A stretch of DNA of 64,000 bases from Promethearchaeota archaeon (GTDB lineage: Archaea; Asgardarchaeota; Lokiarchaeia; Sigyniarchaeales; SOKP01): positions 32,001-96,000 of the forward strand of contig JBHLMQ010000002.1 of assembly GCA_048938005.1 (NCBI GenBank), read 5' to 3'. Under the pieces are notes generated by a model. It saw only the letters and a program-made list of their open reading frames with translations, did no database searches and was not told the origin of the DNA. Position 1 is the first letter of the stretch. Every line of letters begins with the position of its first letter. A program made the translations under genes and the position numbers. Positions 6,056 to 28,823 of this stretch are shown here, piece by piece.

Positions 6056-6763
6056 TTAAATTTTTATAATATCAAGCTGCTCTAACTTTTTTAAAATATC
6101 ATTTATTTCAATACGTTTTCTACTAAGATTTCTGGAAATTTTTAAAGGAGAATTCTTGGCATTGCATTGTAAAGCTACCTGGAAATCAAAATCTGTTATC
6201 ATTCCCATAGATAGAACTTTTTCTAACACACTTTTGACTACCAATAATTTTGGGAAAACTTCAGCTATGCGCCCTCCAATTGTAAGATTTTCAATATCTG
6301 CAACTAATGTATGAAATCTACTTTTATCAGTAGTAGCTCTGAAAGTTTTAAGATCAGATTGATGTTTTTTCCAAAAACGATTTGCAATTTTATGAATTAT
6401 TTCTTCAATTTTATCAGAGTTATCGTCCGCATCTGAAATAGAGCAGAAGAGTATCCTTGATAAAGGATGATAATAAATAAAAATAATTGAATCTTCAGAC
6501 TCTAAAACTCTATCCATCTCATCTACCCTTCTTCCTTTAGACATCGCCTCTTGAATTACATCAATTGTTGTATTAATTGCATTAAAAAACCCAGTTAAAA
6601 TATCGTCTTGAATTTTCTTTAATTCTCTGAATGTTGATTCTAAAATAGATATCCCGTTATCTGCATCTATGAGAAAAATCTTATATATAATGTATATCCC
6701 CAACCTACTGTTTTCATGAAATAATATACGTTTCTTTTTAATAAAAAAATAAAAATATATCAA
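6056..6763 (-). CDS. longin-like domain plus C-terminal winged-helix protein (start uncertain)
   Basis: IFLIDADNGISIL...ILTGFFNAI; C-terminal SPLKISRNL...INDILKKLEQLDII. Confidence 0.6.
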   Translation of the reverse strand: MIYFYFFIKKKRILFHENSRLGIYIIYKIFLIDADNGISILESTFRELKKIQDDILTGFFNAINTTIDVIQEAMSKGRRVDEMDRVLESEDSIIFIYYHPLSRILFCSISDADDNSDKIEEIIHKIANRFWKKHQSDLKTFRATTDKSRFHTLVADIENLTIGGRIAEVFPKLLVVKSVLEKVLSMGMITDFDFQVALQCNAKNSPLKISRNLSRKRIEINDILKKLEQLDIIKI

Positions 6764-8798: not shown

Positions 8799-10262
8799 TC
8801 ATATGTAAGTATGAATTAAATCAATGAGGTTCTTGGAGAAGTTAGGTAAATTTTTCTCAATTTTATCAATTTCTAAAGATTTCTCCAGAAATAGAAGTAA
8901 ATACAAATTGTATTTCTCAACAGTTATTTTTTTAAAGATAACTTTTTTAGACTCCTCAGAAATTCCGGAAGATACTATAAAATCTTGTTCTAACAATTTA
9001 AATTCTTTAAAAGTAGAATATAAATTTTTAAAATATGGGGCTGAAATTTCAAAAACTTTTCCAGAAATATCGGTTTTTGAGAAATTAGATAATATTATGC
9101 CATTTTCATTAAGTAACAATATAGCATCTGAATTTGTTTTTTTAGCAAACTTTTTTAATTGATTTCTAAATAATTCACGATTAGGACTTAATTGAGATAA
9201 ACCAAAAGAATATGCTGAAATAAGGCTCCAATGATCAAAGATACTTGTCTGGAAAATTTTAATAAAAAATCTCTCAGTATTTTTATTGATTTCATCTGCA
9301 ATTACTTCTAAGTTTTTGAAAATCTCTTTAGATCCTTTAAGATCAGGATCAAATTTATGTAGACAAAGTACAATAGGAGGGAATTCATCTAATTCTATTA
9401 AGGAGTTTAAAATTGTACCAAATAAATTTAAAGCTTCATCTATTCTTTCTAGATCTTGAATATCAATGAAAAAAAACAACAAATCAATATTATATAAATA
9501 AATTTTACTTTGTTCAAGAAATTTTTCTCGATATTTTTCTTGTCCACCTATATCCCATATCGAAATGGTTGTGTTTTGCTCTTCAAAAATATTTTCTTCT
9601 TTTCTGTCTACACCCTTAGTTGGTAAGACTTTTATGATTTCGGAATATTTTTTTTGGATTCCTAAAAAAAAACTTGATTTCCCTGCCCTATCTAATCCTG
9701 TTAGCAGGATTTTAATTTGTCGTCTGGTTGAAAGTGGATCTTTTAATTCTTTTGTAAATTCAAATAATTCCTCTCTTAATTCATCCATAATATTTTTTCG
9801 TTCACTATGACTCTTGTTAAGTTGAATTTGCGAAGCAGCTTTATCAATTATGATTCTTAAATATTTCATATTTTCATAGAAAAAGACCCTATCACTCTCA
9901 TCAATTAACACTGTAATAGTTGCTGCTAAAGCTTTACCACGAGCTTTTGGATCAGGTATAAGGAAAAAATAAGTTAATCCATTTAATTTTATGTCAGGAA
10001 AAGGTAATATTCCAAAATAATTTACACCCTCTGTTCCTACACCATTTTGATATTTACTATCTCCCATCAAAAGTGAAATTGTCTTCATAGCGATAAGGAG
10101 CCCTGCGTTTTCATCTAAATCATTTGGCCAAAAAATCTTTGGTACAGGTCCATTTTCATCAAAAATGCTTAAAACGATTGCTTTGATAATATCTGATTTG
10201 AACTCCCCTATTTTTTCTTCAGTTGGTTTATTTTTCTTTGGTTTAGCTTTTGTTTTTGTCAA
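8799..10262 (-). CDS. FLCN/SMCR8-type longin (uDENN) domain + Rag/Arf-like GTPase + roadblock domain
   Basis: SIFDENGPVP and DPKARG in the N-domain; G1 GLDRAGKS, G2 PT, G3 WDIGGQ, G4 HKFD, G5 TSIFD; roadblock AILLLNENGIILS. Confidence 0.85.
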   Translation of the reverse strand: MTKTKAKPKKNKPTEEKIGEFKSDIIKAIVLSIFDENGPVPKIFWPNDLDENAGLLIAMKTISLLMGDSKYQNGVGTEGVNYFGILPFPDIKLNGLTYFFLIPDPKARGKALAATITVLIDESDRVFFYENMKYLRIIIDKAASQIQLNKSHSERKNIMDELREELFEFTKELKDPLSTRRQIKILLTGLDRAGKSSFFLGIQKKYSEIIKVLPTKGVDRKEENIFEEQNTTISIWDIGGQEKYREKFLEQSKIYLYNIDLLFFFIDIQDLERIDEALNLFGTILNSLIELDEFPPIVLCLHKFDPDLKGSKEIFKNLEVIADEINKNTERFFIKIFQTSIFDHWSLISAYSFGLSQLSPNRELFRNQLKKFAKKTNSDAILLLNENGIILSNFSKTDISGKVFEISAPYFKNLYSTFKEFKLLEQDFIVSSGISEESKKVIFKKITVEKYNLYLLLFLEKSLEIDKIEKNLPNFSKNLIDLIHTYI

Positions 10263-10422
10263 AGAATCCCCATTTTTTTAGTTGGAAGCTTTTAATATAT
10301 TAAAAGTTCAATATAACTTTTATTTAGAAATAATATAAAATCTTAATATTACTTTACTATATTCAAAAAAATCATTATTATTAAATACTTTTTTTACCAA
10401 AATTCTAAAGAATTTCCAGAAT

Positions 10423-12222
10423 TTAAGAATAGAACTTCAAACGTGATATACTTGAACCTTTACAAATATCTCTTATAAAATCTTTGATAGTTAAATTGCT
10501 AAATTTTAAGTCTTTTAAGGAAATAAATTCAATTGCTCCCTCATGTATGAATCTATGGAAATCTCCCTGAATTTTTATCCTAGTTAATAAGTCGATCTTC
10601 ACATCATCCCGATAATGAACAGAGTTAGTATAAGTTTGATGATTAGATAATAATCTAATATCTTTCGGGAAATGTTTTAGGTCTAATTTGGTAAATCTAT
10701 CGATTGCTTTTTTTGAAAAGTTTTCGCTTAGAATAAATTTTTTATTACATTTTTCCGATAATTCTGAACATATTTTATTTATTTGATTTAATGTTTTCAT
10801 ACTAAGTTTGATTGATTCTGAATTTTCATGAAGTTCATAATTAGTTAAATACTTCATTGATTCATTTAATCCAACTAAACTAATGGATAATCCTTGATCT
10901 TCCAATTTAAGTAATGGTTTTCCGTCGATGACCCCCCCACAAAAAGGTAAATGATGTGACCTAATTCTCCTTCTTATTATATCATATTTTTTTAATAAAA
11001 TTTTTGAACATAATTTTATTTTCGAATTTAATAATTCAAAAAATGAATCTTCATTTTTGCTAAGATATGCATACCTTGGTAAGTTAAGACTAACATTTTG
11101 AAGGATTCCAACATTCGCGTAATTTTTATTAGAAATTTGTTTGATAATTTTATCTTTATAGATATCTAAACATAAATTTACAAAATAAAAAGAGCTTATT
11201 ATCCCTATCTCATTCCAAAAATTCGAATAAATATTTTCAATTTCCCTTATTAACTTATTATCTAATATTAATTGAAGTTCTGGTGTTGTTATGGGATTAT
11301 TATCATACCCTTCTTTGTAAACGTGGATAAGAGCTTTAAATAATTTTATACCTTCATCTTGATAATTTCCATAAACATTTTCGATTTTTCCACTAGGTCC
11401 AACAGAAGGAACCTCTGAAAACACTTCAAAAATAGATTGAGATGAAGATATTGATGTTTGTGAGATTCCATGTCCAATTATAATAGGTAATTGATTAATC
11501 TCATAAATAAAGTTCCGAATCTCTCGAATTAGTTTTTCTTCAGAGAAATCTTGTACATATGGTGCTAAAAAAGAAGTGATATATTTAAAACCTTGATTTC
11601 CATAAAATTCACTTTGAGTCATACCCCGCCATTTGGAGAGATGATATAGAGCAGAAATAAGATCTTTTGCTGGTTCTTGTTTAATATATCCCGAAGAGTA
11701 ACCTATTGGAGGAAGACCATTTTTTAAAATTAATCGAGGATCCCATATTTGACTAAATGGTCTTAAATCAAAATAATTTAATCCATTAATATGAATATCA
11801 CCGGCTAGATGTGCTTTAGATTCCTCATTATCTAATATTCTTAAATGAGCATATTCTTCAGCTATTTGGTCTGCTGCCCAATGATGAATTTTTTCAGGAT
11901 TTATCCGCTCATATGGTTTATCACTTGGACCTTTTTCAAGAATTTCTTCATAATCCATCAACGGCATTCCAATTCGGGTATACAGCTTACGTTCATTTTC
12001 GAAGTGTTGTTCTGAAAGTATAGAACAGACTATTTCTCTAATATGTGGACCAGAAAGAAATTTAATACCCGAACTGATTATTCTTCTTACCACTAATTCA
12101 GTTATATGGTTTGCATCGGTTTCATTCATTCCTGTCTCTTTCAATATACTGTCAAAAATCTTGGATGGATCGAATTTTGCAATATTCCCTTCAGTTCTAA
12201 ATACTTTAGGTAATAAATCCAT
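10423..12222 (-). CDS. ATP-cone + class III ribonucleotide reductase (NrdD)-like protein, degenerate and C-terminally short
   Basis: ATP cone (FDPSKI...LSGPHIREIV), AHLAGDIHI, SLNLPR, LVGLNE, YTNSVH; no RxxGY glycyl-radical loop. Start taken at the ATG of MDLLPKV. Confidence 0.75.
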   Translation of the reverse strand: MDLLPKVFRTEGNIAKFDPSKIFDSILKETGMNETDANHITELVVRRIISSGIKFLSGPHIREIVCSILSEQHFENERKLYTRIGMPLMDYEEILEKGPSDKPYERINPEKIHHWAADQIAEEYAHLRILDNEESKAHLAGDIHINGLNYFDLRPFSQIWDPRLILKNGLPPIGYSSGYIKQEPAKDLISALYHLSKWRGMTQSEFYGNQGFKYITSFLAPYVQDFSEEKLIREIRNFIYEINQLPIIIGHGISQTSISSSQSIFEVFSEVPSVGPSGKIENVYGNYQDEGIKLFKALIHVYKEGYDNNPITTPELQLILDNKLIREIENIYSNFWNEIGIISSFYFVNLCLDIYKDKIIKQISNKNYANVGILQNVSLNLPRYAYLSKNEDSFFELLNSKIKLCSKILLKKYDIIRRRIRSHHLPFCGGVIDGKPLLKLEDQGLSISLVGLNESMKYLTNYELHENSESIKLSMKTLNQINKICSELSEKCNKKFILSENFSKKAIDRFTKLDLKHFPKDIRLLSNHQTYTNSVHYRDDVKIDLLTRIKIQGDFHRFIHEGAIEFISLKDLKFSNLTIKDFIRDICKGSSISRLKFYS

Positions 12223-12502
12223 TATTATCTTCTTAAATGATTTGTATTTAGTTTTGTAATATTTTGTATTAATCAATAATATTATAGAAACTTTAAAAAA
12301 AAAAATTATTATGGGATTAAATTTAAAGAATTGCTATTATAAAGGAACAAGAGGAAGATTTAATTCTAGCAAAACTTTTCAATTTTTTTTGCTTTTGACA
12401 TTCACCTATTTTAAATCTTATTATCTGAAATTCCTCTAATTAAGCTTTCAGAATTTTCATACACTCTTTCTTTTATTTTAATAGATCGGTTTATATGAAA
12501 TC

Positions 12503-13297
12503 ATGAAATTATGCACCGACTCATTATTGAAACAGTTTTTTGCTGAGATTTATTCAATATTAAAGGAGACAGATACAAATGTCATTGATATCTGGTGGGA
12601 AGTTTCAGAAATTCCAATTCTTAATCATTTTAATCATTTTGAGCTAAGAGACTTTTTGGGGAATTTCAATTTTGTTTCACTTCAAAAAGGAAACTATCTT
12701 CACTATATTGTTATAAATAAGATCTTGTTCATTATGGAAGCTATCACTATATTAAAATTGGATATTAGGCAAATTTCGGAGATATTAGATTATGATGGTT
12801 TTGAATCCTTAATAAAAGAAATTCTCTCAAAAAACAACTATATAACTATAAAAAATTTTAGATTTACAGATAAATCAAATTTTAAATCTAAGACTTCCCA
12901 AAAAAGATATGAAATTGATATTATTGGAATTCATTTAAAATATATATTACTTATAGATGCAAAACAATGGAGGCGTAAGGATTCATATCTTTCTCTCAGT
13001 AAAGCAGCAGATTTACAATTTCGTCGAGCCATTGCTTTAAAAAAAAATCCTGAAATCTTTTTTCGCCTTATCCATAAATTAATTGGCTCAAAATTCAATT
13101 TAAAAAAGCGATTACCATTTATAATTATCCCTGTCATGGCAACCTTAGAGGATAACAGTATTAAGATAAATGCCAATCAAATTCCTCTTGTTTCTATAAA
13201 CGAATTAAACTCGTTTCTCCAAGAATTACAAAACAACTTACAATATTTTAGAATAGTCAAAATTAATAGGATAATTCAACAGAAAAGAATAGCTTGA
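12503..13297 (+). CDS. PD-(D/E)xK nuclease-fold protein (Mrr/NERD-like)
   Basis: FESLIKEIL, YEIDIIG, LLIDAKQW. Confidence 0.7.
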   Translation: MKLCTDSLLKQFFAEIYSILKETDTNVIDIWWEVSEIPILNHFNHFELRDFLGNFNFVSLQKGNYLHYIVINKILFIMEAITILKLDIRQISEILDYDGFESLIKEILSKNNYITIKNFRFTDKSNFKSKTSQKRYEIDIIGIHLKYILLIDAKQWRRKDSYLSLSKAADLQFRRAIALKKNPEIFFRLIHKLIGSKFNLKKRLPFIIIPVMATLEDNSIKINANQIPLVSINELNSFLQELQNNLQYFRIVKINRIIQQKRIA

Positions 13298-13334
13298 ATA
13301 AAAAATAAACTCAATGCATACTTTTATAATATCC

Positions 13335-14390
13335 CTATTTTTCTAATCCTAAATACTCCTTTAATTGCTTTTTTACTATATTCAAAGCAAAAGAGATTAT
13401 TCCACTTTTAACCTTAGGATGTGAAAATAATACTAATATCATATCTTTAATACTTGGATTTTCTCTATCTATCGGGGCAAGATCCAAAACTCCATCTGTT
13501 CCTCTTACTGATATAGATTTTAATACGCCAGCATCTAATCCTTCTATGATATCAGTTCCAATCATTGAAAGATTCATTCCTATGGTTGCAAATAAAGAAT
13601 CAGAAATTCTACTTGATATTGCCGATGCCAATATTGTTCCATCTGTTTTGATGATTGCTGAAGCTTCAATATTTAAATCTAACGTTAATAACCGCGTTAA
13701 AATTTCATTCATACTGGAGGGTGGTATTTTCCCTTCGATTTCTTTTTTTTTTATTGTTTTCACTTTGGGTATTTCTAGTTTCTTAACAGAAATTTTTTTT
13801 GAAAGAAATCCTAGCACCTCAGTCATATCCTTTTCTAGTCTTTTTTGTTTTAAAACAGACTCATCGCTTTCTGTAGTTTCTAATGGAATGGGAGAAATTG
13901 AAATTTCTTGTTTCCCATTTTGATCTTCTAAAACTGAATTTTTAAGCTCCTTAAAAGCATCCGAAATTACATCCCTAGATCTAGAAGATGGAGTTGGAGG
14001 AGAAGGAGGAGTCCTTATGCTATTACCGGAATCTATAATAGATCCTTTATATGGTTGAGCTGGAATTTCTTGCAGAACTTCTGAATTATTTACATCAGAT
14101 ACTGCTCTACCATCCATAGGAACCTCATTTTCAAATTCTTCTTTCTTAGGTAAAGGAATTTCATGCAATTCAATTGGTTCGCTAGTTACTTTCTGTTCTT
14201 TTGGAATTTCTTCTAATTCCAATTTTTTTTCCAGTTCAATAGGTTTCTGTTCTTTTTTTTTTTCTCTGTCAATTCTAGAACCCCGTGATCGAGATCGTTT
14301 AGAAGAAACGGGTAGTAGAGCGCCACATTTCCTACATGTGTGACTAACGGCTTCATTATTTGTAGTACCACAGTTTTGACATATAATCAA
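13335..14390 (-). CDS. zinc-ribbon + low-complexity linker + roadblock/LC7 domain protein
   Basis: CQNCG...CRKCG; Pro/Glu/Ser-rich linker; IEASAIIKTDGTILAS...ISVRGTDG. Confidence 0.8.
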   Translation of the reverse strand: MIICQNCGTTNNEAVSHTCRKCGALLPVSSKRSRSRGSRIDREKKKEQKPIELEKKLELEEIPKEQKVTSEPIELHEIPLPKKEEFENEVPMDGRAVSDVNNSEVLQEIPAQPYKGSIIDSGNSIRTPPSPPTPSSRSRDVISDAFKELKNSVLEDQNGKQEISISPIPLETTESDESVLKQKRLEKDMTEVLGFLSKKISVKKLEIPKVKTIKKKEIEGKIPPSSMNEILTRLLTLDLNIEASAIIKTDGTILASAISSRISDSLFATIGMNLSMIGTDIIEGLDAGVLKSISVRGTDGVLDLAPIDRENPSIKDMILVLFSHPKVKSGIISFALNIVKKQLKEYLGLEK

Positions 14391-14577
14391 TAAAATTTTT
14401 CAACTCTTTGATTACTTTAATTAATTTCCTAAACCTTTAAGGTTTATTGCTCTAAATTTTGTAATTTTTTTAGTTTTTACTATACAATTTATGAATAAAA
14501 ATTTAATTTTATTAATGTTAGTGATAATAAAATAAATTAGAATGCTCTTAAAATAGAATAAATTCAATTAGAATAAC

Positions 14578-15552
14578 CTATTTATATAGAATCTCTTTTA
14601 ATAAATTTGCAAAAGATTCAAGATCTTCTTTATGGAAAACAGGATCTTCTTTAAGAAGCAATAAATAATATGGAGATGAATCCTTTTTCAAAGTAATCTC
14701 TTTAAATATGAAATTTTTACCGAATCTTTGTACTATCATTCGAGTTTCATAACTTTCTTCCAATACACCAGTGTATTGAAATGAATCGTGCAAAGTTAAA
14801 AAATATGGGGTCGAAGCTGTCAGTAGATGCTTGATTTCATCATCTTTATAATAGGAACCAATTATAAGTGAATTGTCGTCAATAACTACAACTCCTTGTG
14901 AATCAACTTTTTTTGCAAATTCTACAATTGTTTTCTCAATCAATTCTGATTTTGGATAGAGCCTTAAAAGAATTTCAGACATGGCAGTAATAATTGAACC
15001 AAAATCATAAATTGAGGTTTCATAGTAATATAATTTTTTATAATCTGTAGCATTTCTTATTTTATCCTTTAAATCTATTACTAAGGCTTCCATTTCATTT
15101 TGAGCACTTCTCCTTAAAGCAGGATCATATTTATGAAGAAAAATATATATCGGAGGTTCGATCTCTAATTTTTTAAATTGTTTTATTACATCTTTAAAAT
15201 AACTAATAGCTTCTGGTATTCTAGCTTTATTTTGGGCATCGATTACATAAATAGCAATTTCTGTGCCTTCAAAATATTTTCCTGGATTTTTCAAATATGC
15301 AATTCGGTAAGCCGCTTGTCCACCTAGATCCCATTCTGAGATTTCTTTACCCAGAAAATCGAATATTCTTCTTTGAGCCCCCCTTGTTGGAGATAAAATG
15401 GCGATTTTAGAAAATTCTCTTTGAAGAGCCAATATTATACTTGTTTTACCTGCGTCGTCTAAACCTGTAAAAAGAACCTTATTTGGAGCAACTACTACTT
15501 CTGGTTCTTCCTTTCTAAGGTACAATATTGATTGTTTAAGATCTTTTTCCAA
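14578..15552 (-). CDS. Rag-like small GTPase with C-terminal roadblock domain
   Basis: GLDDAGKT, PTRG, WDLGGQ, HKYD, TSIYD; GVVVIDDNSLIIG. Confidence 0.85.
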   Translation of the reverse strand: MEKDLKQSILYLRKEEPEVVVAPNKVLFTGLDDAGKTSIILALQREFSKIAILSPTRGAQRRIFDFLGKEISEWDLGGQAAYRIAYLKNPGKYFEGTEIAIYVIDAQNKARIPEAISYFKDVIKQFKKLEIEPPIYIFLHKYDPALRRSAQNEMEALVIDLKDKIRNATDYKKLYYYETSIYDFGSIITAMSEILLRLYPKSELIEKTIVEFAKKVDSQGVVVIDDNSLIIGSYYKDDEIKHLLTASTPYFLTLHDSFQYTGVLEESYETRMIVQRFGKNFIFKEITLKKDSSPYYLLLLKEDPVFHKEDLESFANLLKEILYK

Positions 15553-15805
15553 AGTTAAATTTCACCTTTAATGTTACATGAATAAAATTTCAAATATATT
15601 CTTTTGTAAGATAAAAAATTATATAATACTTTATTTAGATTTCGCATTTAAAATTATTTTATATAAATAATTTGAAGTCTTAATATCTTTGAATTTCCAC
15701 AGGAATGGGAATTTCACTTTTGGTTTGAATCATTTTTAATTTTTTAGCTAATTCTGGTTTACCAATTGTTTGAATTAATTCCTTTATAATTAAAAATAAA
15801 GCTAT

Positions 15806-16327
15806 TTATCTTTTTAATAATTCCTTTAATTTCTCTATTGCTTCATGGGGAGTTTCTACTCCATAAATCATATCATATCTTCTATCATCTAATTTTTGAT
15901 TTGCTATCTTTGAGGACCATCCTTTGACACTAGACAACGCAACAATAGGTTTTTGATATATCCAAGCAAAACAAATCTCAGATAATGTACCAGCTTTACC
16001 ACTAATAGCTAAACAAGCATCACCACTGAGAACGACAACAATATTTCTCGCTTGTGAAAATGGGCAAGGAATAACGATATCAACATATTTGTTAGCAGTA
16101 GATTTATCTATGTGAGGGATTATTCCAATTGTTAATCCATTTTCTTCTTTTGCCCCTTTGCATACAGCCTCCATAACGCCAGTAAGACCTCCACAAGCTA
16201 TAACAAATTTATTTTGAGCAAGTAATCGTCCTATTTCAAATGTTATTTCTTCTGTTTTTTTATCAATTTCACTTGATCCTATTATTGATACAATGCCATT
16301 AAACTGATCTTTATAATTAAAATTCAT
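15806..16327 (-). CDS. LOG/SLOG-family nucleotide-binding protein (TIGR00725-like)
   Basis: CGGLTGVMEAVCKGA, TIGIIP, ARN, GTLSE. Confidence 0.85.
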   Translation of the reverse strand: MNFNYKDQFNGIVSIIGSSEIDKKTEEITFEIGRLLAQNKFVIACGGLTGVMEAVCKGAKEENGLTIGIIPHIDKSTANKYVDIVIPCPFSQARNIVVVLSGDACLAISGKAGTLSEICFAWIYQKPIVALSSVKGWSSKIANQKLDDRRYDMIYGVETPHEAIEKLKELLKR

Positions 16328-16372
16328 ACACTTCAGGCTCTTATATTTTTATTTTTAATAAACTCAAAATCT

Positions 16373-17335
16373 CTAAAATCTAAGTACATCAATCGATTCT
16401 GATCCATCATTTAATTTCAAGAGATTTTTATCTTCAATGATTTTACCTATAATTTCTGCATGTAATCCATGCTTTTCAAATAGTTCAATCAACTCTTTAC
16501 AATTTTTATCTGTAGCAGTCAATATAAACGATGTAGTTAAATACATCTTGATATAAGTTGCCAAATCATATTTATTCTTTACTAAAATAGGAGGAATTGT
16601 TATTTTGGTAACATTTATATCTGCACCTCCTTCTGAATACTTTATCATTTGTAAAATTGTTCCAAAAATCCCCCCGTTTGAAATATCTTTCGAAGCATTT
16701 GCTAAATGTTTTTTAGCAACTAAATTCATAGCTTTCCTACTATTAAGAATTTCTTCTGAGGTTTTAAATGTAGTTGTATCATAGTATAGTTTACTAGCTT
16801 TTCCAATTCTTCCATTGAAATCAACAGCTAAAATTATTTTATCATTTTTTTGAGCATTACCAGCAGAAATATAATCATCCTTTTTAATTTCTCCTATCAT
16901 TGTAGAACTTAACTCATAGCATTTACTATGAATGTTTGTATGGCCTCTTATAATTGGTACTTGAAATTTATTTGAGCCTTCACAAATTCCTCTTAATAAT
17001 TCATTACAAGTTCTAAGATCCTTTACAGAAATGATTATACTTGCTGCTAATGGGGTACCTCCACACGCATAAATGTCATCAACACTAACTAAAATAGAAC
17101 TAAAACCCGCTCCATAAGGAAATTGTTCAATAAATTCAGTCCTTATTCTATCAGTGGTAATTAATATTAACTTTTCATTATTTCGCAGAGTCGCAGAGTC
17201 TTCACCAATGTCAGTAAAAATTCTATTAGTTTTAAAAGCGTTTTTATAAATATATTCAACTATAGGATTAATCTCTTTTTTTTCAATGATATATTGATTA
17301 TTTCTAATGCTTTCAGCGATCTTTTTAAGAATCAT
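16373..17335 (-). CDS. AIR-synthase-related (PurM/ThiL fold) protein
   Basis: IGEDSA, DDIYACGGTP, GHT, KDISNGGIFGT. Confidence 0.8.
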   Translation of the reverse strand: MILKKIAESIRNNQYIIEKKEINPIVEYIYKNAFKTNRIFTDIGEDSATLRNNEKLILITTDRIRTEFIEQFPYGAGFSSILVSVDDIYACGGTPLAASIIISVKDLRTCNELLRGICEGSNKFQVPIIRGHTNIHSKCYELSSTMIGEIKKDDYISAGNAQKNDKIILAVDFNGRIGKASKLYYDTTTFKTSEEILNSRKAMNLVAKKHLANASKDISNGGIFGTILQMIKYSEGGADINVTKITIPPILVKNKYDLATYIKMYLTTSFILTATDKNCKELIELFEKHGLHAEIIGKIIEDKNLLKLNDGSESIDVLRF

Positions 17336-17429
17336 CTATGATTTAAATATAAAGCTATTAATAATTAAATTTGCTTAAAATAAATTAAGAAATTTAAAAC
17401 TTAATATAAATAAATTACTATTTAAAACA

Positions 17430-18932
17430 ATGGAAGAATTATTGAAATCTTCAATTGTTAAGGGATTCGTATTTAGTATTTACGGTGAATTAGGACCAAC
17501 TCCAATTTATTGTTTCCCTAATTTCGTTAATGAGAAAGAATTGGAGGAGCTTATCAAAAAGCCAGAAAAACAAGATGGTCTTATTCTAACATATCGAGAT
17601 ATAACTCAAATTTCTATTAAAAATTTAAGTTTATTTATTACCGATAAGATAATTTCTGAACAAAAAGATCTTCAAAAAATTCAATATTTTGCGATTCTAC
17701 CCTATCCAGATTTTAATACAACCTCACTTACGTATTTTCATTATATTTATACAAATTTTTCTGAATTTCCTGTAGCAACAGCTTTTTCAATTTTAGTAGA
17801 AGAAAATAGACGAAGTTATTTGTATAATAATATTAATAGAATTAAACCAGTAGTAATTGATTTTTTCAAAAATTTTCATAAAGAACTATTTGATGCTTAC
17901 CCTCCACGTGAATATGTTGAAGATTTTTTTCGTGAACTTTTATTGAAATTAATAGAAATCGAACAAAGTCCTTCAACACCTATTACTAGTCATAGAAAGA
18001 TGAAAATCTTGTTCGCTGGTTTAGATGATAGTGGCAAAACAAGTTTTTTACTTTCTGTAGATCGAAAATATAGTAAATTAATTGGATTAAAACCAACTAC
18101 AGGAGCAAGCATTAAATCTATTGAAGCCTTAGGAGCGACAATATTTTTATGGGATTTAGGTGGTCAGAGAAGGTTTAGAGAAAAATATATTGATAAGGCA
18201 GAAATTTACTTGTATGAAGCGGATTTGTTATTCTATTTTATTGATATTAGAAATAAAATAAGGTTTGAAGAAAGTATCGAATATCTTCAAAATCTAAAAG
18301 CTGTTCTGAAAGATTTTAATCAAAATACTCCAATAATATATATCCTTTCAAAAGGAGATGCTGATATTCTGAATTCAGTAGAAATTAAAGAAAACATTGA
18401 ATATATCAATAAAAAGTTAATTAATATTACACTTGATGAGCCATTAGAAATATATACTACAAGTATTTTTCAGATTTTTACAATTTTAAGAGCTTTCTCA
18501 TCAGGTATATCCAAATTAAGTCCTAATAGAGATTTAATAAATCATAACCTTAGGAATTTTTCTTTAAAGACTTATACTTATTTAACATTGTTATTAAGTC
18601 TTGATGGGTTAGTGTTAGCAGATTTTTATAGTAATGAAGTATTGCGATTAACAAACATTCCCAAATCAGAAGTGATAAATGTTTTTGAAGTCTCTGCGCC
18701 CCAATTTGCTATGTTATTCAAAATTTTTGCTAAATTTAAGGCTTTACAAAAAGATGAGGCTATATTTAAAGTTGCTAACTCAGTGATTCTTTTTAAAAGA
18801 ATCCAAATTGAAGACAATGCAATGTTTCTTCTTTTTTTAGTAGAGGATGAGAAGAAAAAAAAATTGATTAATAAGGAATTATCACGTTTCTTAAATCAAA
18901 CCAATGACTTACTCTTAAGGTATATTGCTTAA
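17430..18932 (+). CDS. longin (uDENN)-like domain + Rag/Arf-like GTPase + roadblock domain; paralog of 8799..10262
   Basis: SIYGELGPTP, YFAILPYPD; GLDDSGKT, PT, WDLGGQ, SKGD, TSIF; shared LSPNR and VFE(I/V)SAP motifs. Confidence 0.85.
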   Translation: MEELLKSSIVKGFVFSIYGELGPTPIYCFPNFVNEKELEELIKKPEKQDGLILTYRDITQISIKNLSLFITDKIISEQKDLQKIQYFAILPYPDFNTTSLTYFHYIYTNFSEFPVATAFSILVEENRRSYLYNNINRIKPVVIDFFKNFHKELFDAYPPREYVEDFFRELLLKLIEIEQSPSTPITSHRKMKILFAGLDDSGKTSFLLSVDRKYSKLIGLKPTTGASIKSIEALGATIFLWDLGGQRRFREKYIDKAEIYLYEADLLFYFIDIRNKIRFEESIEYLQNLKAVLKDFNQNTPIIYILSKGDADILNSVEIKENIEYINKKLINITLDEPLEIYTTSIFQIFTILRAFSSGISKLSPNRDLINHNLRNFSLKTYTYLTLLLSLDGLVLADFYSNEVLRLTNIPKSEVINVFEVSAPQFAMLFKIFAKFKALQKDEAIFKVANSVILFKRIQIEDNAMFLLFLVEDEKKKKLINKELSRFLNQTNDLLLRYIA

Positions 18933-27770: not shown

Positions 27771-28823
27771 TTGGTAATCATGAAGCGGGAAATAATTACA
27801 GGGATTGTATACATTGAAATGAATGATGAGATCGGTCCAAATCCAGTTGCGTGGCTTCCCACTAAATTTACACAAATGGATCTAATCCACATAAGCATTA
27901 AAGCATTAACTATTCTCTCTGGAGAAAAAGGGCTCATCCCAGAATCTTTAGTTATACTCCCATTTCCTTCGATGAATTTAAAGGGTTTAATTAAATATAT
28001 TAAATGGGATGATCCATCAAGGCGAGGAAGTATCGGTCAATCTGCCATCGTATTACTATTCCCAGAGATGGATGATGTAATTTTCTATAAATATATTGAT
28101 GAATTATCTATTCCTTTCAATAATCTCTCTCCAGAAATAATAAATTTAGAAAAAACTGAAGGGTCTAGAGAAGATTTTATTAAGGTATTAGAACATCTTG
28201 AGTTTAATACAACCGCTCTTCTGGAAGAATTAAAACTTCAAGAAATCGCTAAACAAGAGAGTGAAGAATTCCCTGTACAGAAAATTAAAGATCGAAGCCT
28301 GATAGATTATCAATTTAAAGTAATTATAGTTGGAGACCCTAATGTTGGAAAGACGTCATTAATACTTAGATATACTGATAATGCGTTTAGGAGAAATTAT
28401 GTGCCCACATTAGGAGTAATGGTTAGTGACAAGATTTTCAAAATCGAAGATTTTGTGGTGCAATTAACACTTTGGGATATTGGTGGCCAGCAGAAATTTC
28501 AGACTATGAGGCAGCAATTTTATCGCGGTTCTGATGCAGTCTTCCTTGTATTTGATTTAACGAGGCCAGAATCGTTCAATAATATTCCCAAATGGTATGC
28601 TGATGTTCTCGATCAATTAAAAGATCGATCTGAGGAATTAATAGGTTTTATCATTGGGAATAAAAACGATTTAGGAGATCAGAGAAAAATAACCGACGAA
28701 ATGGCAAATCAGTTAGCAAGTCAATTAGAACTAGAATTTATCGATACATCGGCACTATTAGGAGGGAACGTAGATTATGCTTTTTCTAAAATAGCTAAAT
28801 ATTTATTGAAATCACGTATGTAA
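27771..28823 (+). CDS. longin (uDENN)-like domain fused to a Rab-like GTPase
   Basis: EMNDEIGPNP, ILPFP, DPSRRG; GDPNVGKT, YVPTLG, WDIGGQ, FYRG, NKND, TSAL. Confidence 0.88.
   Translation: MVIMKREIITGIVYIEMNDEIGPNPVAWLPTKFTQMDLIHISIKALTILSGEKGLIPESLVILPFPSMNLKGLIKYIKWDDPSRRGSIGQSAIVLLFPEMDDVIFYKYIDELSIPFNNLSPEIINLEKTEGSREDFIKVLEHLEFNTTALLEELKLQEIAKQESEEFPVQKIKDRSLIDYQFKVIIVGDPNVGKTSLILRYTDNAFRRNYVPTLGVMVSDKIFKIEDFVVQLTLWDIGGQQKFQTMRQQFYRGSDAVFLVFDLTRPESFNNIPKWYADVLDQLKDRSEELIGFIIGNKNDLGDQRKITDEMANQLASQLELEFIDTSALLGGNVDYAFSKIAKYLLKSRM

What the first reader, a model, noticed from the sequence alone, without database searches (positions are those of the whole stretch)
8799..18932. Rag-like GTPases fused to FLCN/SMCR8-type longin domains, one with and one without the arginine finger
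Seen: 8799..10262 and 17430..18932 are paralogous longin-GTPase-roadblock fusions with a Rag-like G5 (TSIF) and, in the first, a Rag-type G4 (HKFD). The N-domains start with F(D/G)-type ExGPxP motifs (FDENGPVP, YGELGPTP). The first has IPDPKARG (Arg codon 9939-9941); the second has TNFSEFP at the equivalent place. A third, unfused Rag-like GTPase and a roadblock protein lie between them. Established: FLCN and SMCR8 carry their GAP arginine finger in a DxxARG loop and pair with non-catalytic longin partners (FNIP, C9orf72); Rags dimerise through roadblock domains; longin/roadblock-GTPase fusions are known in Asgards. Inference: a compact Rag-heterodimer + GAP-heterodimer module with built-in active/inactive asymmetry, resembling the eukaryotic Rag-FLCN/GATOR1 machinery.
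Basis: partly seen in the sequence, partly recalled or inferred. Interest (0 to 1): 0.85.

Follow-up and report, generated by a model that had tools for sequence, protein, structure and literature searches.

The report
Rag GTPases with built-in GAP-type longin domain
Two neighbouring genes of a Lokiarchaeial genome encode Rag-type GTPases fused to a folliculin/NPRL2-like longin domain, one with and one without the catalytic-looking arginine, which suggests that the Rag switch and its GAP were already coupled in the archaeal relatives of eukaryotes.

Summary
ORFs 8799..10262(-) (A, 487 aa) and 17430..18932(+) (B, 500 aa) are full-length paralogs (32% identity, E 7e-73). Both read N-terminal longin, RagGtr GTPase, C-terminal roadblock.

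- **Fold:** after a Lokiarchaeial longin, the nearest solved folds to A's N-domain are chains of GATOR1, Lst4, FLCN-FNIP2 and C9orf72-SMCR8 entries.
- **Motifs:** A's GP motif and the Ala-Arg-Gly of the beta4-beta5 loop are invariant in 117 of 117 aligned sequences. B keeps GP in 113 of 113 but has no ARG in 120 of 120 listed hits.
- **Neighbours:** an unfused Rag-like GTPase (C), orthologous to the solved LokiRagO, lies between A and B in all 12 fetched A-B loci.

What is not shown: GAP activity, the target GTPase, and A:B pairing. The complex prediction gave only weak support.

The parts are already in print: longin-GTPase-roadblock fusions (Tran 2024) and Asgard GP/Arg-finger longins with unknown client (Novak Vanclova 2025). 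The covalent link to Rag and the Arg+/Arg- pairing look unreported in the library searched.

Verdict: a new variant of a known kind, of moderate to high interest.

The parts
8799..10262 (-). Gene A: longin - RagGtr GTPase - roadblock fusion, 487 aa, Arg-finger-bearing paralog
   Evidence: ORF. Pfam Gtr1_RagA 4.6e-26 and Folliculin 8.5e-4 (19.6 bits, below the 23.3 cutoff). Full-length AF2 model has pLDDT 76.0, pTM 0.73. Its Foldseek hits are 8yl2 LokiRagO 2e-18 and RagA/RagC 6s6a 3e-15 to 5e-15 over about 300-310 columns.
9738..10196 (-). A, N-terminal GP-longin domain (about residues 23-175): b1 26-35, b2 38-45, a1 51-66, b3 82-88, b4 93-103, b5 111-121, a2 122-148, a3 152-174
   Evidence: AF2 model m1c6521c674f3 has pLDDT 88.1, pTM 0.81. 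Foldseek PDB hits: 8yqg Loki Roadblock-Longin longin 4.1e-9, then chains of GATOR1, Lst4, FLCN-FNIP2 and C9orf72-SMCR8 entries. Profile A1 vs PDB finds 8yqg at 1.7e-27.
10146..10151 (-). A, GP motif (Gly38-Pro39) at the start of beta2
   Evidence: G38 and P39 are each 117 of 117. GP is present in 100 of 108 representatives that cover the column. The motif is described for FLCN, NPRL2, SMCR8 and C9orf72 in PMC12290439.
9936..9944 (-). A, Ala107-Arg108-Gly109 in the beta4-beta5 loop: candidate arginine finger (Arg codon 9939-9941)
   Evidence: Translation. A107, R108 and G109 are each 117 of 117. ARG is present in 120 of 120 listed family-A hits. The loop position comes from the model.
9195..9716 (-). 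A, GTPase domain (about residues 183-356): G1 GLDRAGKS, G2 T215, G3 WDIGGQ, G4 HKFD, G5 TSIF
   Evidence: Sequence. Conservation of G1-G5. Pfam Gtr1_RagA covers residues 184-394.
8802..9179 (-). A, C-terminal roadblock-type domain (about residues 362-487)
   Evidence: Secondary structure H362-376, E378-384, E390-395, H398-420, E428-432, E440-448, E451-459, H462-486. Foldseek alignments of about 300-320 columns to full RagA, RagC and Gtr1 chains, TMt 0.63-0.71.
17430..18932 (+). Gene B: paralogous longin - RagGtr GTPase - roadblock fusion, 500 aa, without the arginine
   Evidence: ORF. 32% identical to A over the full length. Pfam Gtr1_RagA 4.9e-19. PDB sequence hits: 8yl2 1.4e-26, RagA 2.6e-11.
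17493..17498 (+). B, GP motif (Gly22-Pro23)
   Evidence: G22 and P23 are each 113 of 113.
17748..17771 (+). B, degenerate finger loop (residues 107-114, YTNFSEFP), two residues shorter than in A
   Evidence: No ARG in 120 of 120 listed family-B hits. The loop columns are variable. The gap position is seen.
14578..15552 (-). Gene C: unfused Rag-like GTPase-roadblock protein, 324 aa, ortholog of the solved LokiRagO
   Evidence: Pfam Gtr1_RagA 3.4e-25. PDB 8yl2_A 3.2e-91 over residues 4-321; the 8yl2 title is. 35% identical to A's GTPase+RB part. Lies between A and B in 12 of 12 fetched loci.
13335..14390 (-). Gene D: Zn-ribbon, long low-complexity linker, and a probable roadblock domain (C-terminal 130 aa, 13338-13727)
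   Evidence: Pfam Zn_Ribbon_1 0.0011. Robl_LC7 E 0.033, below cutoff. PDB 7f8m Robl_LC7 protein E 0.013. Detected next to C in 10 of 12 loci and in G030.

Best explanation
A and B are paralogous RagGtr-family GTPases. Each carries a C-terminal roadblock (Rag CRD-like) dimerisation domain and an N-terminal longin domain of the FLCN/NPRL2/SMCR8 'GP-longin' kind. A's longin keeps an invariant Ala-Arg-Gly in the beta4-beta5 loop. That is the position where DENN-type longin GAPs are reported to carry their arginine finger. B's longin has lost it.

Most likely A and B pair, roadblock to roadblock as Rag dimers do and/or longin to longin as FLCN-FNIP, NPRL2-NPRL3 and SMCR8-C9orf72 do. That would give one finger-bearing and one finger-less longin built directly onto a Rag dimer. 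The single Arg would then speed GTP hydrolysis on one G domain of the assembly: A's own, B's, or that of the neighbouring unfused Rag-like GTPase C. The two G domains would thereby hold unequal nucleotide states.

Shown: domain architecture, fold class, motif conservation and loss, gene neighbourhood. Inferred: GAP activity, the A:B pairing, the target.
For: **Architecture.** Pfam Gtr1_RagA matches A, B and C. The N-domain model (pLDDT 88.1) has the longin order b1 b2 a1 b3 b4 b5 a2 a3. The full-length model aligns over about 300-320 columns with LokiRagO, RagA, RagC and Gtr1 chains.

**Fold class.** After the Lokiarchaeial longin 8yqg (4.1e-9), the best Foldseek hits are all chains of longin-GAP complex entries:
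- 9o5a_H and 9o5d_D, GATOR1: 2.6e-4 and 5.4e-4
- 4zy8, Lst4: 8.7e-4
- 8dhb_J, active FLCN complex: 1.8e-3
- 7o2w_A, C9orf72-SMCR8: 2.6e-3

Pfam Folliculin is hit by 10 of 35 members of alignment A1, best E 1.3e-6. As a lead only, ESM Atlas rank 2 is a cluster with NPR2 on 19% of members, score 0.88.

**Motifs.** GP and ARG are each 117 of 117 in A orthologs. B orthologs have GP in 113 of 113 and ARG in 0 of 120. R108 lies between b4 (93-103) and b5 (111-121), and GP at the start of b2. PMC12290439 describes GP next to the Arg finger in FLCN, NPRL2 and SMCR8 and in Asgard longins. The Avl9 preprint places DENN-GAP fingers between b4 and b5.

**Pairing of Arg+ and Arg- longins.**
- A and B lie on one contig, 5.6-13.5 kb apart and divergent, in 16 of the 22 same-genus genomes that have both. 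In the other 6 they are on different contigs.
- They are also linked in 2 genomes of another family, at 40% and 35% identity.
- In 3 genomes of a further family with no B found at E<=1e-15, the A-like gene sits 1.4-1.9 kb from a stand-alone 169-179 aa longin. That longin lacks the Arg and shares B's 2-residue-shorter loop.

**Complex prediction A+B: weak support**. ipSAE was 0.49 against a best of 3 controls of 0.00. That mark was reached by 58 of 80 solved complexes and 2 of 110 mismatched pairs. At 0.60 or under, however, it was reached by only 7 of those 80 and by both mismatches that passed. The runs agree in at least 85% of contacts and the partner's pLDDT is at least 77. My own alignments were used, so the counts hold only roughly. 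Rag heterodimers are solved, so the pass may reflect likeness.
Against: - No biochemical evidence exists.
- No residue-level superposition on FLCN R164, NPRL2 or SMCR8 R147 could be made. The VIA libraries were absent and the tools return no coordinates.
- Sequence profiles of the N-domain find no FLCN, NPRL2 or SMCR8 chain in the PDB at E<=10.
- A's own Pfam Folliculin score (19.6) is below the gathering score (23.3).
- A and B are not an operon. They are divergently transcribed with six genes between them.
- The conserved neighbourhood also holds housekeeping genes: archaeosortase H, MtrH, transglutaminase-like, and a TIGR00725 SLOG protein. It is therefore partly plain vertical synteny among kin.
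- In G032 A and B are 81 kb apart.
- In G026 the SLOG-AIRS-ArtH-A block has no B or C hit.
- C's solved ortholog is titled a homotetramer, so Lokiarchaeial Rags need not follow the heterodimer rule.
- The solved Lokiarchaeial longin 8yqg lacks the Arg (alignments).
- An Arg-Gly at this column is also common in longins fused to Ras-like GTPases: 33 of 43 longin-GTPase representatives, including window ORF 27771..28823. The finger is therefore not Rag-specific.
Confidence: 0.5

Rival explanations
1. The Arg-bearing longin is a GAP module, but A and B do not pair. Each forms homo-oligomers. A stimulates its own G domain, in cis or across an A:A dimer, much as G-alpha carries its own arginine (recalled analogy). 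B is simply a finger-less paralog regulated by something else.
For: C's solved ortholog LokiRagO is titled 'homo tetrameric'. 8yqg is a 'dimeric structure' of a single longin. Tran et al. modelled homodimers of such architectures (PMC10933270, section read). A occurs without a detectable B in some genomes: B was not found at E<=1e-15 in G026, G027, G029 and G033. The A+B prediction is only weak.
Against: A and B co-occur in 22 of 24 same-genus genomes and are linked in 16 of those 22. Where B is not found, an Arg-less stand-alone longin lies beside A. That fits a need for a finger-less partner.
Confidence: 0.25
2. The longin domains are not GAPs. They serve as platforms, exchange factors, or localisation or effector-binding modules for the fused GTPase, as most longin and roadblock domains do. 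The conserved ARG would then be structural or bind another ligand.
For: Most longin/DENN proteins are described as GEFs or platforms (PMC3747258 abstract; PMC10933270 introduction). Liu et al. proposed a GEF role for an Asgard FLCN-like module (bioRxiv 10.1101/2020.10.19.343400, passage). No sequence-level hit to FLCN, NPRL2 or SMCR8 was found.
Against: Absolute invariance of Ala-Arg-Gly in a surface hairpin loop (117 of 117), together with the GP motif that PMC12290439 reports as specific to longin GAP subunits. The nearest eukaryotic folds are the GAP complexes.
Confidence: 0.15
3. The finger acts in trans on other small GTPases (Arf-related or Ras-like), as SMCR8-C9orf72 does on Arf. The fused Rag domains would only regulate or localise this GAP.
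For: PMC12290439 leaves open whether ArfR or Rag proteins are the clients of Asgard GP-longins. The same longin type with Arg-Gly is fused to Ras-like GTPases.
Against: Covalent fusion to a RagGtr domain, and a Rag-like neighbour (C), are the only partner clues in the locus. No Arf-like gene lies in the conserved block.
Confidence: 0.1

Closest known systems
Eukaryotic longin-domain GAP complexes for Rag/Arf: FLCN-FNIP, GATOR1 NPRL2-NPRL3, SMCR8-C9orf72
   Same: Longin fold. GP motif at beta2. Arg in a neighbouring loop. One finger-bearing and one finger-less paralogous longin. Association with Rag GTPases. These complexes supply the nearest non-archaeal solved folds (PMC12290439; PMC9473554).
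   Different: There is no DENN or NPRL2 C-terminal domain; instead the longin is fused to the GTPase itself. No Ragulator, TOR or lysosome context. No significant sequence-profile hit to these chains. Pfam Folliculin is below threshold for A.
Asgard 'FLCN/SMCR8-type' GP-longins with arginine finger (Novak Vanclova, Jackson, Dacks 2025, PMC12290439)
   Same: Same two motifs in the same arrangement, in Asgard archaea. The authors already propose shared ancestry and possible GAP activity.
   Different: The passages read treat the client GTPase as an open question (ArfR or Rag) and do not mention fusion to Rag GTPases or Arg+/Arg- paralog pairs. Their sequence list (Data S1) could not be seen, so overlap with A cannot be excluded.
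Lokiarchaeial Rag-like GTPases with longin and roadblock domains (Tran et al. 2024, PMC10933270; Dey et al. 2016, PMC4917890, citing Klinger et al.; Liu et al. bioRxiv 2020)
   Same: [quoted passage not shown] Longin-GTPase fusions in Lokiarchaeum are reported. NPRL2-like longins and longin-fused Rag GTPases in Asgards are reported.
   Different: In the passages read, none of these identifies the fused longin as the finger-bearing GAP type or notes the finger-less paralog.
LokiRagO (PDB 8yl2), LokiRagM (8zla/9m28) and the Loki Roadblock-Longin protein (8yqg/8yqk)
   Same: C is an ortholog of LokiRagO (3.2e-91). The G+RB parts of A and B match it (4.9e-38; 1.4e-26). A's longin is homologous to 8yqg.
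   Different: LokiRagO has no longin domain and is titled homotetrameric. 8yqg has an N-terminal roadblock instead of a C-terminal GTPase, and it lacks the Arg at the aligned loop. No paper on these entries was found.
Monomeric DENN GAPs (Avl9 family; bioRxiv 10.64898/2026.01.05.697756)
   Same: Arginine finger between beta4 and beta5 of a longin (sub)domain.
   Different: These are eukaryotic DENN proteins that act on Arf/Arl in trans. They are neither fused to a GTPase nor paired with a finger-less paralog.

Membership tests
RagGtr GTPase family | G domain matches the Gtr1/RagA profile above its curated threshold | tested here: met
   Pfam PF04670: A 92.1 bits, B 69.1 bits, C 89.3 bits, against a cutoff of 22. 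By plain sequence, PDB Arf and Gtr1/RagA chains score alike (about 1e-12 to 1e-13).
RagGtr GTPase family | C-terminal roadblock-type domain (CRD) after the G domain | tested here: met
   The full-length model of A aligns over about 300-320 columns with whole RagA, RagC and Gtr1 chains, TMt 0.63-0.71. The secondary structure of residues 362-486 agrees.
RagGtr GTPase family | Obligate dimer through the roadblock domains (a heterodimer of two paralogs in eukaryotes) | tested here: inconclusive
   A+B prediction gave ipSAE 0.49 against a best control of 0.00, 'weak support', with no contacts given. The C ortholog is titled homotetrameric.
RagGtr GTPase family | Placement inside the RagGtr clade in a GTPase phylogeny that includes eukaryotic RagA/B and RagC/D | not tested
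   No eukaryotic sequences were available from the tools for a tree. All three proteins hit RagA/Gtr1 chains, and no RagC/Gtr2 chain was listed at the thresholds used.
FLCN/NPRL2/SMCR8-type longin GAP subunits | Longin fold whose nearest solved relatives are the longin-GAP complexes | tested here: met
   Model. Foldseek ranks 3-11 are chains of GATOR1, Lst4, FLCN-FNIP2 and C9orf72-SMCR8 entries, E 2.6e-4 to 2.6e-3, TMq 0.43-0.57. The tool does not name the subunit of each chain.
FLCN/NPRL2/SMCR8-type longin GAP subunits | GP motif at the beta1-beta2 loop or the start of beta2 | tested here: met
   A has G38-P39 in 117 of 117. B has G22-P23 in 113 of 113. The motif is defined in PMC12290439.
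FLCN/NPRL2/SMCR8-type longin GAP subunits | Conserved arginine finger structurally equivalent to FLCN R164, SMCR8 R147 and the NPRL2 finger | tested here: inconclusive
   An invariant Arg108 is present in the beta4-beta5 loop of A and absent in B. Residue-level equivalence could not be computed: the VIA libraries were unavailable and no coordinates are returned.
FLCN/NPRL2/SMCR8-type longin GAP subunits | Sequence-profile membership (Pfam Folliculin or NPR2 above threshold) | tested here: not met
   A scores 19.6 bits on Folliculin against a cutoff of 23.3. 10 of 35 relatives hit it at E<=0.1, best 1.3e-6. No FLCN, NPRL2 or SMCR8 chain is found by profile at E<=10.
FLCN/NPRL2/SMCR8-type longin GAP subunits | Longin followed by a DENN domain (FLCN, SMCR8) or the NPRL2 C-terminal domain | tested here: not met
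   In A and B the longin is followed by a GTPase and a roadblock domain. They are relatives of the longin module only, not members of the FLCN/DENN or NPRL2 families.
FLCN/NPRL2/SMCR8-type longin GAP subunits | Arg-dependent GAP activity on a Rag or Arf GTPase | not testable with these tools
   This needs GTPase assays with R108A.

The most novel reading that the evidence does not exclude
The A/B pair is a surviving 'all-in-one' form of the Rag switch. A RagA/RagC-like heterodimer has N-terminal longins that together form a FLCN-FNIP/NPRL2-NPRL3-like single-finger GAP acting inside the same complex. On this reading Rag GTPases were the original clients of the GP-longin GAP family. The Arg+/Arg- longin split, seen also as A plus a stand-alone Arg-less longin in another family, would predate eukaryotes. 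The eukaryotic GATOR1, FLCN and C9orf72-SMCR8 catalytic cores would descend from such fused or adjacent pairs by gene fission.
Probability: 0.2. Interest if true: 0.85.

Novelty: new variant of a known kind. Interest (0 to 1): 0.6.

Why it matters
The 2025 survey of longin GAP complexes found GP/Arg-finger longins in Asgard archaea and asked which GTPases they serve. Here the finger-bearing longin is covalently joined to a RagGtr GTPase. It is conserved in nearly every genome searched of the window's order (39 of 41, G000 included). It is also accompanied by a finger-less paralog. That gives a natural partner assignment: Rag.

It also suggests that the Rag-plus-longin-GAP logic of eukaryotic nutrient signalling existed before TOR, lysosomes and eukaryotes. 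And it offers a small, soluble two- or three-protein system (A, B, C) in which the finger mechanism can be tested directly. C's ortholog has already been crystallised.

Tried and rejected
- **Profile searches of the PDB.** The N-domain alignments A1 and A2 found the Lokiarchaeial longin and roadblock entries but no FLCN, NPRL2 or SMCR8 chain at E<=10. The link to those families therefore rests on fold, weak Pfam hits and motifs.
- **Full-length model of A.** It was meant to show whether R108 faces its own P-loop. The tools return no coordinates, so cis versus trans stays open.
- **Literature on the PDB entries.** Searches for 8YL2/8ZLA/9M28, Roadblock-Longin/8YQG and LokiRagO/LokiRagM found no relevant paper in the library. 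The work may be unpublished or in a journal that is not held.
- **Supplementary files.** They were closed. Data S1 of PMC12290439 (its 14 Asgard longins) and the supplementary figures of PMC10933270 (architectures, AF2 dimers) may already show proteins like A and B. I could not check.
- **Sequencing runs.** No RNA holder was listed.
- **Operon reading, rejected.** I considered that A/B synteny alone shows an operon-like module. The genes are divergent and separated by six genes, and the block includes housekeeping genes conserved in the same order.
- **HKFD as a Rag signature, rejected.** 102 of 117 orthologs have NKFD.
- **MAG names.** The NCBI names 'Hodarchaeota', 'Thorarchaeota', 'Odinarchaeota' and 'Heimdallarchaeota' on hits of 50-80% identity were not used for distribution claims.

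**Rows dropped before counts.** In some searches, hits shorter than 420 aa were left out. That left 116 of 120 A hits and 112 of 120 B hits aligned, plus the window protein in each. In one search, 1 of 130 representatives had no longin hit, and 8 did not cover the finger column. Only the best 120 of 487 (A) and 120 of 165 (B) hits were listed and examined.

Full report
**What is there.** The window is AT-rich (GC 0.24-0.37). Hit names place it among Lokiarchaeia/Promethearchaeota. They align over their whole length at 32% identity, E 7e-73.

Six genes lie between them:
- an NrdD-like protein with an ATP-cone
- a NERD-like protein
- D, a Zn-ribbon protein with a probable C-terminal roadblock domain
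- C, an unfused Rag-like GTPase of 324 aa
- a TIGR00725 SLOG protein
- an AIR-synthase-related protein resembling methanogenesis marker 2

A, B and C all match Pfam Gtr1_RagA well above threshold. C is an ortholog of PDB 8yl2 (E 3.2e-91). Foldseek titles that entry 'Homo tetrameric RagA-like small GTPase from Asgard Lokiarchaeota (LokiRagO)'.

**The three-domain architecture.** An AF2 model of A residues 1-178 (pLDDT 88.1, pTM 0.81) has the longin order b1(26-35) b2(38-45) a1(51-66) b3(82-88) b4(93-103) b5(111-121) a2 a3. The full-length model (pLDDT 76.0) adds a Ras-like G domain and a C-terminal a-b-b-a-b-b-b-a domain. Its Foldseek hits cover about 300-320 columns of LokiRagO (2e-18), RagA/RagC (6s6a, 3e-15 to 5e-15), Gtr1 and LokiRagM. 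That span takes in both the G domain and the roadblock CRD. The G1-G5 motifs are intact and conserved in A, and B's P-loop and DxGGQ are present in 118 of 120 listed hits each. The 'Rag-type' HKFD of A is a local variant, because 102 of 117 orthologs have NKFD.

**What kind of longin.** A profile of the N-domain family finds PDB 8yqg at 1.7e-27. Foldseek titles it the 'Longin domain from a Lokiarchaeota archaeon Roadblock-Longin protein'. After 8yqg, Foldseek ranks only chains of longin-GAP complex entries:
- GATOR1: 9o5a_H at 2.6e-4, 9o5d_D at 5.4e-4, 9v0j_A, 7t3b_B
- Lst4 longin (4zy8): 8.7e-4
- the active FLCN complex (8dhb_J): 1.8e-3
- C9orf72-SMCR8 (7o2w_A, 7mge_C, 6v4u_A)
- FLCN-FNIP2 (6ulg_N)

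TM-scores are modest (TMq 0.43-0.57) and the tool does not say which subunit each chain is. At sequence level the link is weak. Pfam Folliculin scores 19.6 bits for A against a cutoff of 23.3. It is hit by 10 of 35 family members, best E 1.3e-6. No FLCN, NPRL2 or SMCR8 chain appears in profile searches of the PDB. I therefore call the domain a relative of the FLCN/NPRL2/SMCR8 longin module, not a member of those families. The DENN or NPRL2 C-terminal domains that define them are absent.

**The motifs.** In 117 aligned family-A sequences F34, D35, G38, P39, A107, R108 and G109 never vary. All 120 listed hits contain ARG. In family B, GP is 113 of 113. None of the 120 listed hits has ARG. The loop is variable and, in alignments, two residues shorter.

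R108 lies in the b4-b5 hairpin and GP at the start of b2. Novak Vanclova et al. describe exactly this pair, GP at beta2 spatially next to the arginine finger. They report it as specific to FLCN, NPRL2, SMCR8 and C9orf72, and as present in 'FLCN/SMCR8-type' Asgard longins. A 2026 preprint places the fingers of DENN GAPs between b4 and b5.

Across 129 diverse representatives of the domain, GP is present in 100 of the 108 that cover the column. Arg-Gly is present in 82 of the 121 that cover the loop. Among longin-GTPase-roadblock proteins, 8 have it and 12 do not.

**Context and distribution.** The window's genome has only four matches to the domain profile: A, B, a 350-aa longin-Ras-like GTPase at 27771..28823 (with Arg-Gly), and one weaker hit on another contig.
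- A-type N-domains were found in 39 of 41 genomes, namely 40 relatives of the same genus or order plus G000. B-type N-domains were found in 35 of 41.
- In the genus, 22 of 24 genomes have both. In 16 of those 22 the two genes are on one contig, divergent, 5.6-13.5 kb apart. In the other 6 they are on different contigs.
- I fetched 12 regions, chosen because A and B shared a contig. C lies between A and B in 12 of 12, D and the NrdD-like gene were detected in 10 of 12, and SLOG and the AIRS-like gene in 12 of 12. Two of these regions come from another family, at 40%, 35% and 47-48% identity for A, B and C.
- The block also contains archaeosortase H, MtrH, a transglutaminase-like protein and an unknown 235-aa protein in constant order. 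Much of this is therefore inherited gene order, and the genomes are kin.

More telling are the rearranged cases. In G030, C-D-A are adjacent. In G032, A sits alone 81 kb from a C-SLOG-AIRS-B block. In three genomes of a further family, B was not found. There the A-like gene (with DxxARG) lies 1.4-1.9 kb from a divergently oriented stand-alone longin of 169-179 aa. That longin lacks the Arg and shares B's shorter loop.

Phylum-wide, the domain profile matched 64 of 151 genomes at E<=1e-8. Frames of A/B size were listed only in the window's own order. Other families show 170-400 aa or more than 1000 aa frames (50 further matches were not listed).

**Do A and B bind?** The one complex job (full-length A + B with my alignments, 987 residues) gave ipSAE 0.49, 0.48 and 0.49, against 0.00 for all three controls. 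The tool's verdict was 'weak support'. That mark was reached by 58 of 80 solved complexes and 2 of 110 mismatches. At 0.60 or below, however, it was reached by only 7 of the 80 and by both passing mismatches. The runs agree in at least 85% of contacts, the partner's pLDDT is at least 77, and no contacts were given. Because Rag heterodimers are solved, the pass may reflect likeness to them.

**What is known already.**
- Longin-GTPase fusions in Lokiarchaeum were reported in 2016 (passages of PMC4917890).
- Liu et al. noted Rag GTPases fused to longin, and abundant NPRL2-like longins, in Asgards (passages).
[quoted passage not shown] I found no text that joins these points. By that I mean that the finger-bearing GAP-type longin is itself fused to a RagGtr GTPase, and that it comes with a finger-less paralog. 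Supplements were closed, so overlap cannot be excluded.

**Verdict.** The best reading (confidence 0.5) is a Rag dimer with a built-in, single-finger longin GAP. The main rival is that A self-activates in homo-oligomers. It is a new variant of a known kind. Its main value is that it names Rag as a client of the archaeal GP-longins and makes the question testable with two or three small proteins.

Noticed in passing
window 27771..28823 (+): A 350-aa protein with the same GP-longin domain (GP, and Arg-Gly in the finger loop) fused to a Ras/Rab-like GTPase (TIGR00231 small_GTP, 7.8e-22). It has no roadblock domain. Among representatives, 33 of 43 longin-GTPase proteins carry the Arg-Gly, so this longin type is attached to more than one GTPase family.
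   Followed up: partly
L033 11866..12405 (+); L034 12350..12859 (+); L040 9476..9985 (+): In three genomes of another family, a stand-alone 169-179 aa longin without the Arg lies 1.4-1.9 kb from the A-like gene. Two of the three also lack GP. One gene of 360-388 aa with no assigned function lies between them. B was not found in these genomes at E<=1e-15.
   Followed up: partly
window 15806..17335 (-): A TIGR00725-family SLOG protein (134 bits, cutoff 106.9) and an AIR-synthase-related protein resembling methanogenesis marker 2 (248 bits, below its cutoff of 365) are adjacent. They lie between C and B in 12 of 12 fetched loci, and next to B or A in more distant genomes. Any link to the GTPases is unknown.
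   Followed up: no
window 6056..6763 (-): An Asgard-restricted hypothetical protein of 215-235 aa with a faint C-terminal TrmB-like HTH signal (E 0.2). It is conserved next to the transglutaminase-like gene and A in most fetched loci.
   Followed up: partly
window 10423..12276 (-): An NrdD-like protein with an ATP-cone. It scores far below the NCBIfam NrdD cutoff (216.6 against 326.35 bits), so it may be a divergent glycyl-radical-type or inactive relative. It lies directly upstream of A on the same strand in 10 of 12 loci.
   Followed up: no
A residues 34-39 (window 10146..10163, -): A's invariant Phe-Asp two residues before GP (FDxxGP) recalls the essential W33-D34 before G38-P39 of C9orf72 quoted in PMC12290439, with one residue less spacing. 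B has Tyr-Gly at these positions.
   Followed up: no
G030:C22:47234-47914 and representatives P0269, P0285, P0302 and others: A family of about 285 aa, roadblock followed by GP-longin with ARG in 14 of 15 representatives. Its solved members are 8yqk and 8yqg. It was not found in the window's own genome with profile A1 but is present in a genome of the same order.
   Followed up: partly
other genomes, e.g. G172:C54:26990-27559, G147:C85:1487-2065: In one family of the phylum, the GP-longin profile matches inside very long open frames of 1475-1639 aa. Their architecture was not examined.
   Followed up: no
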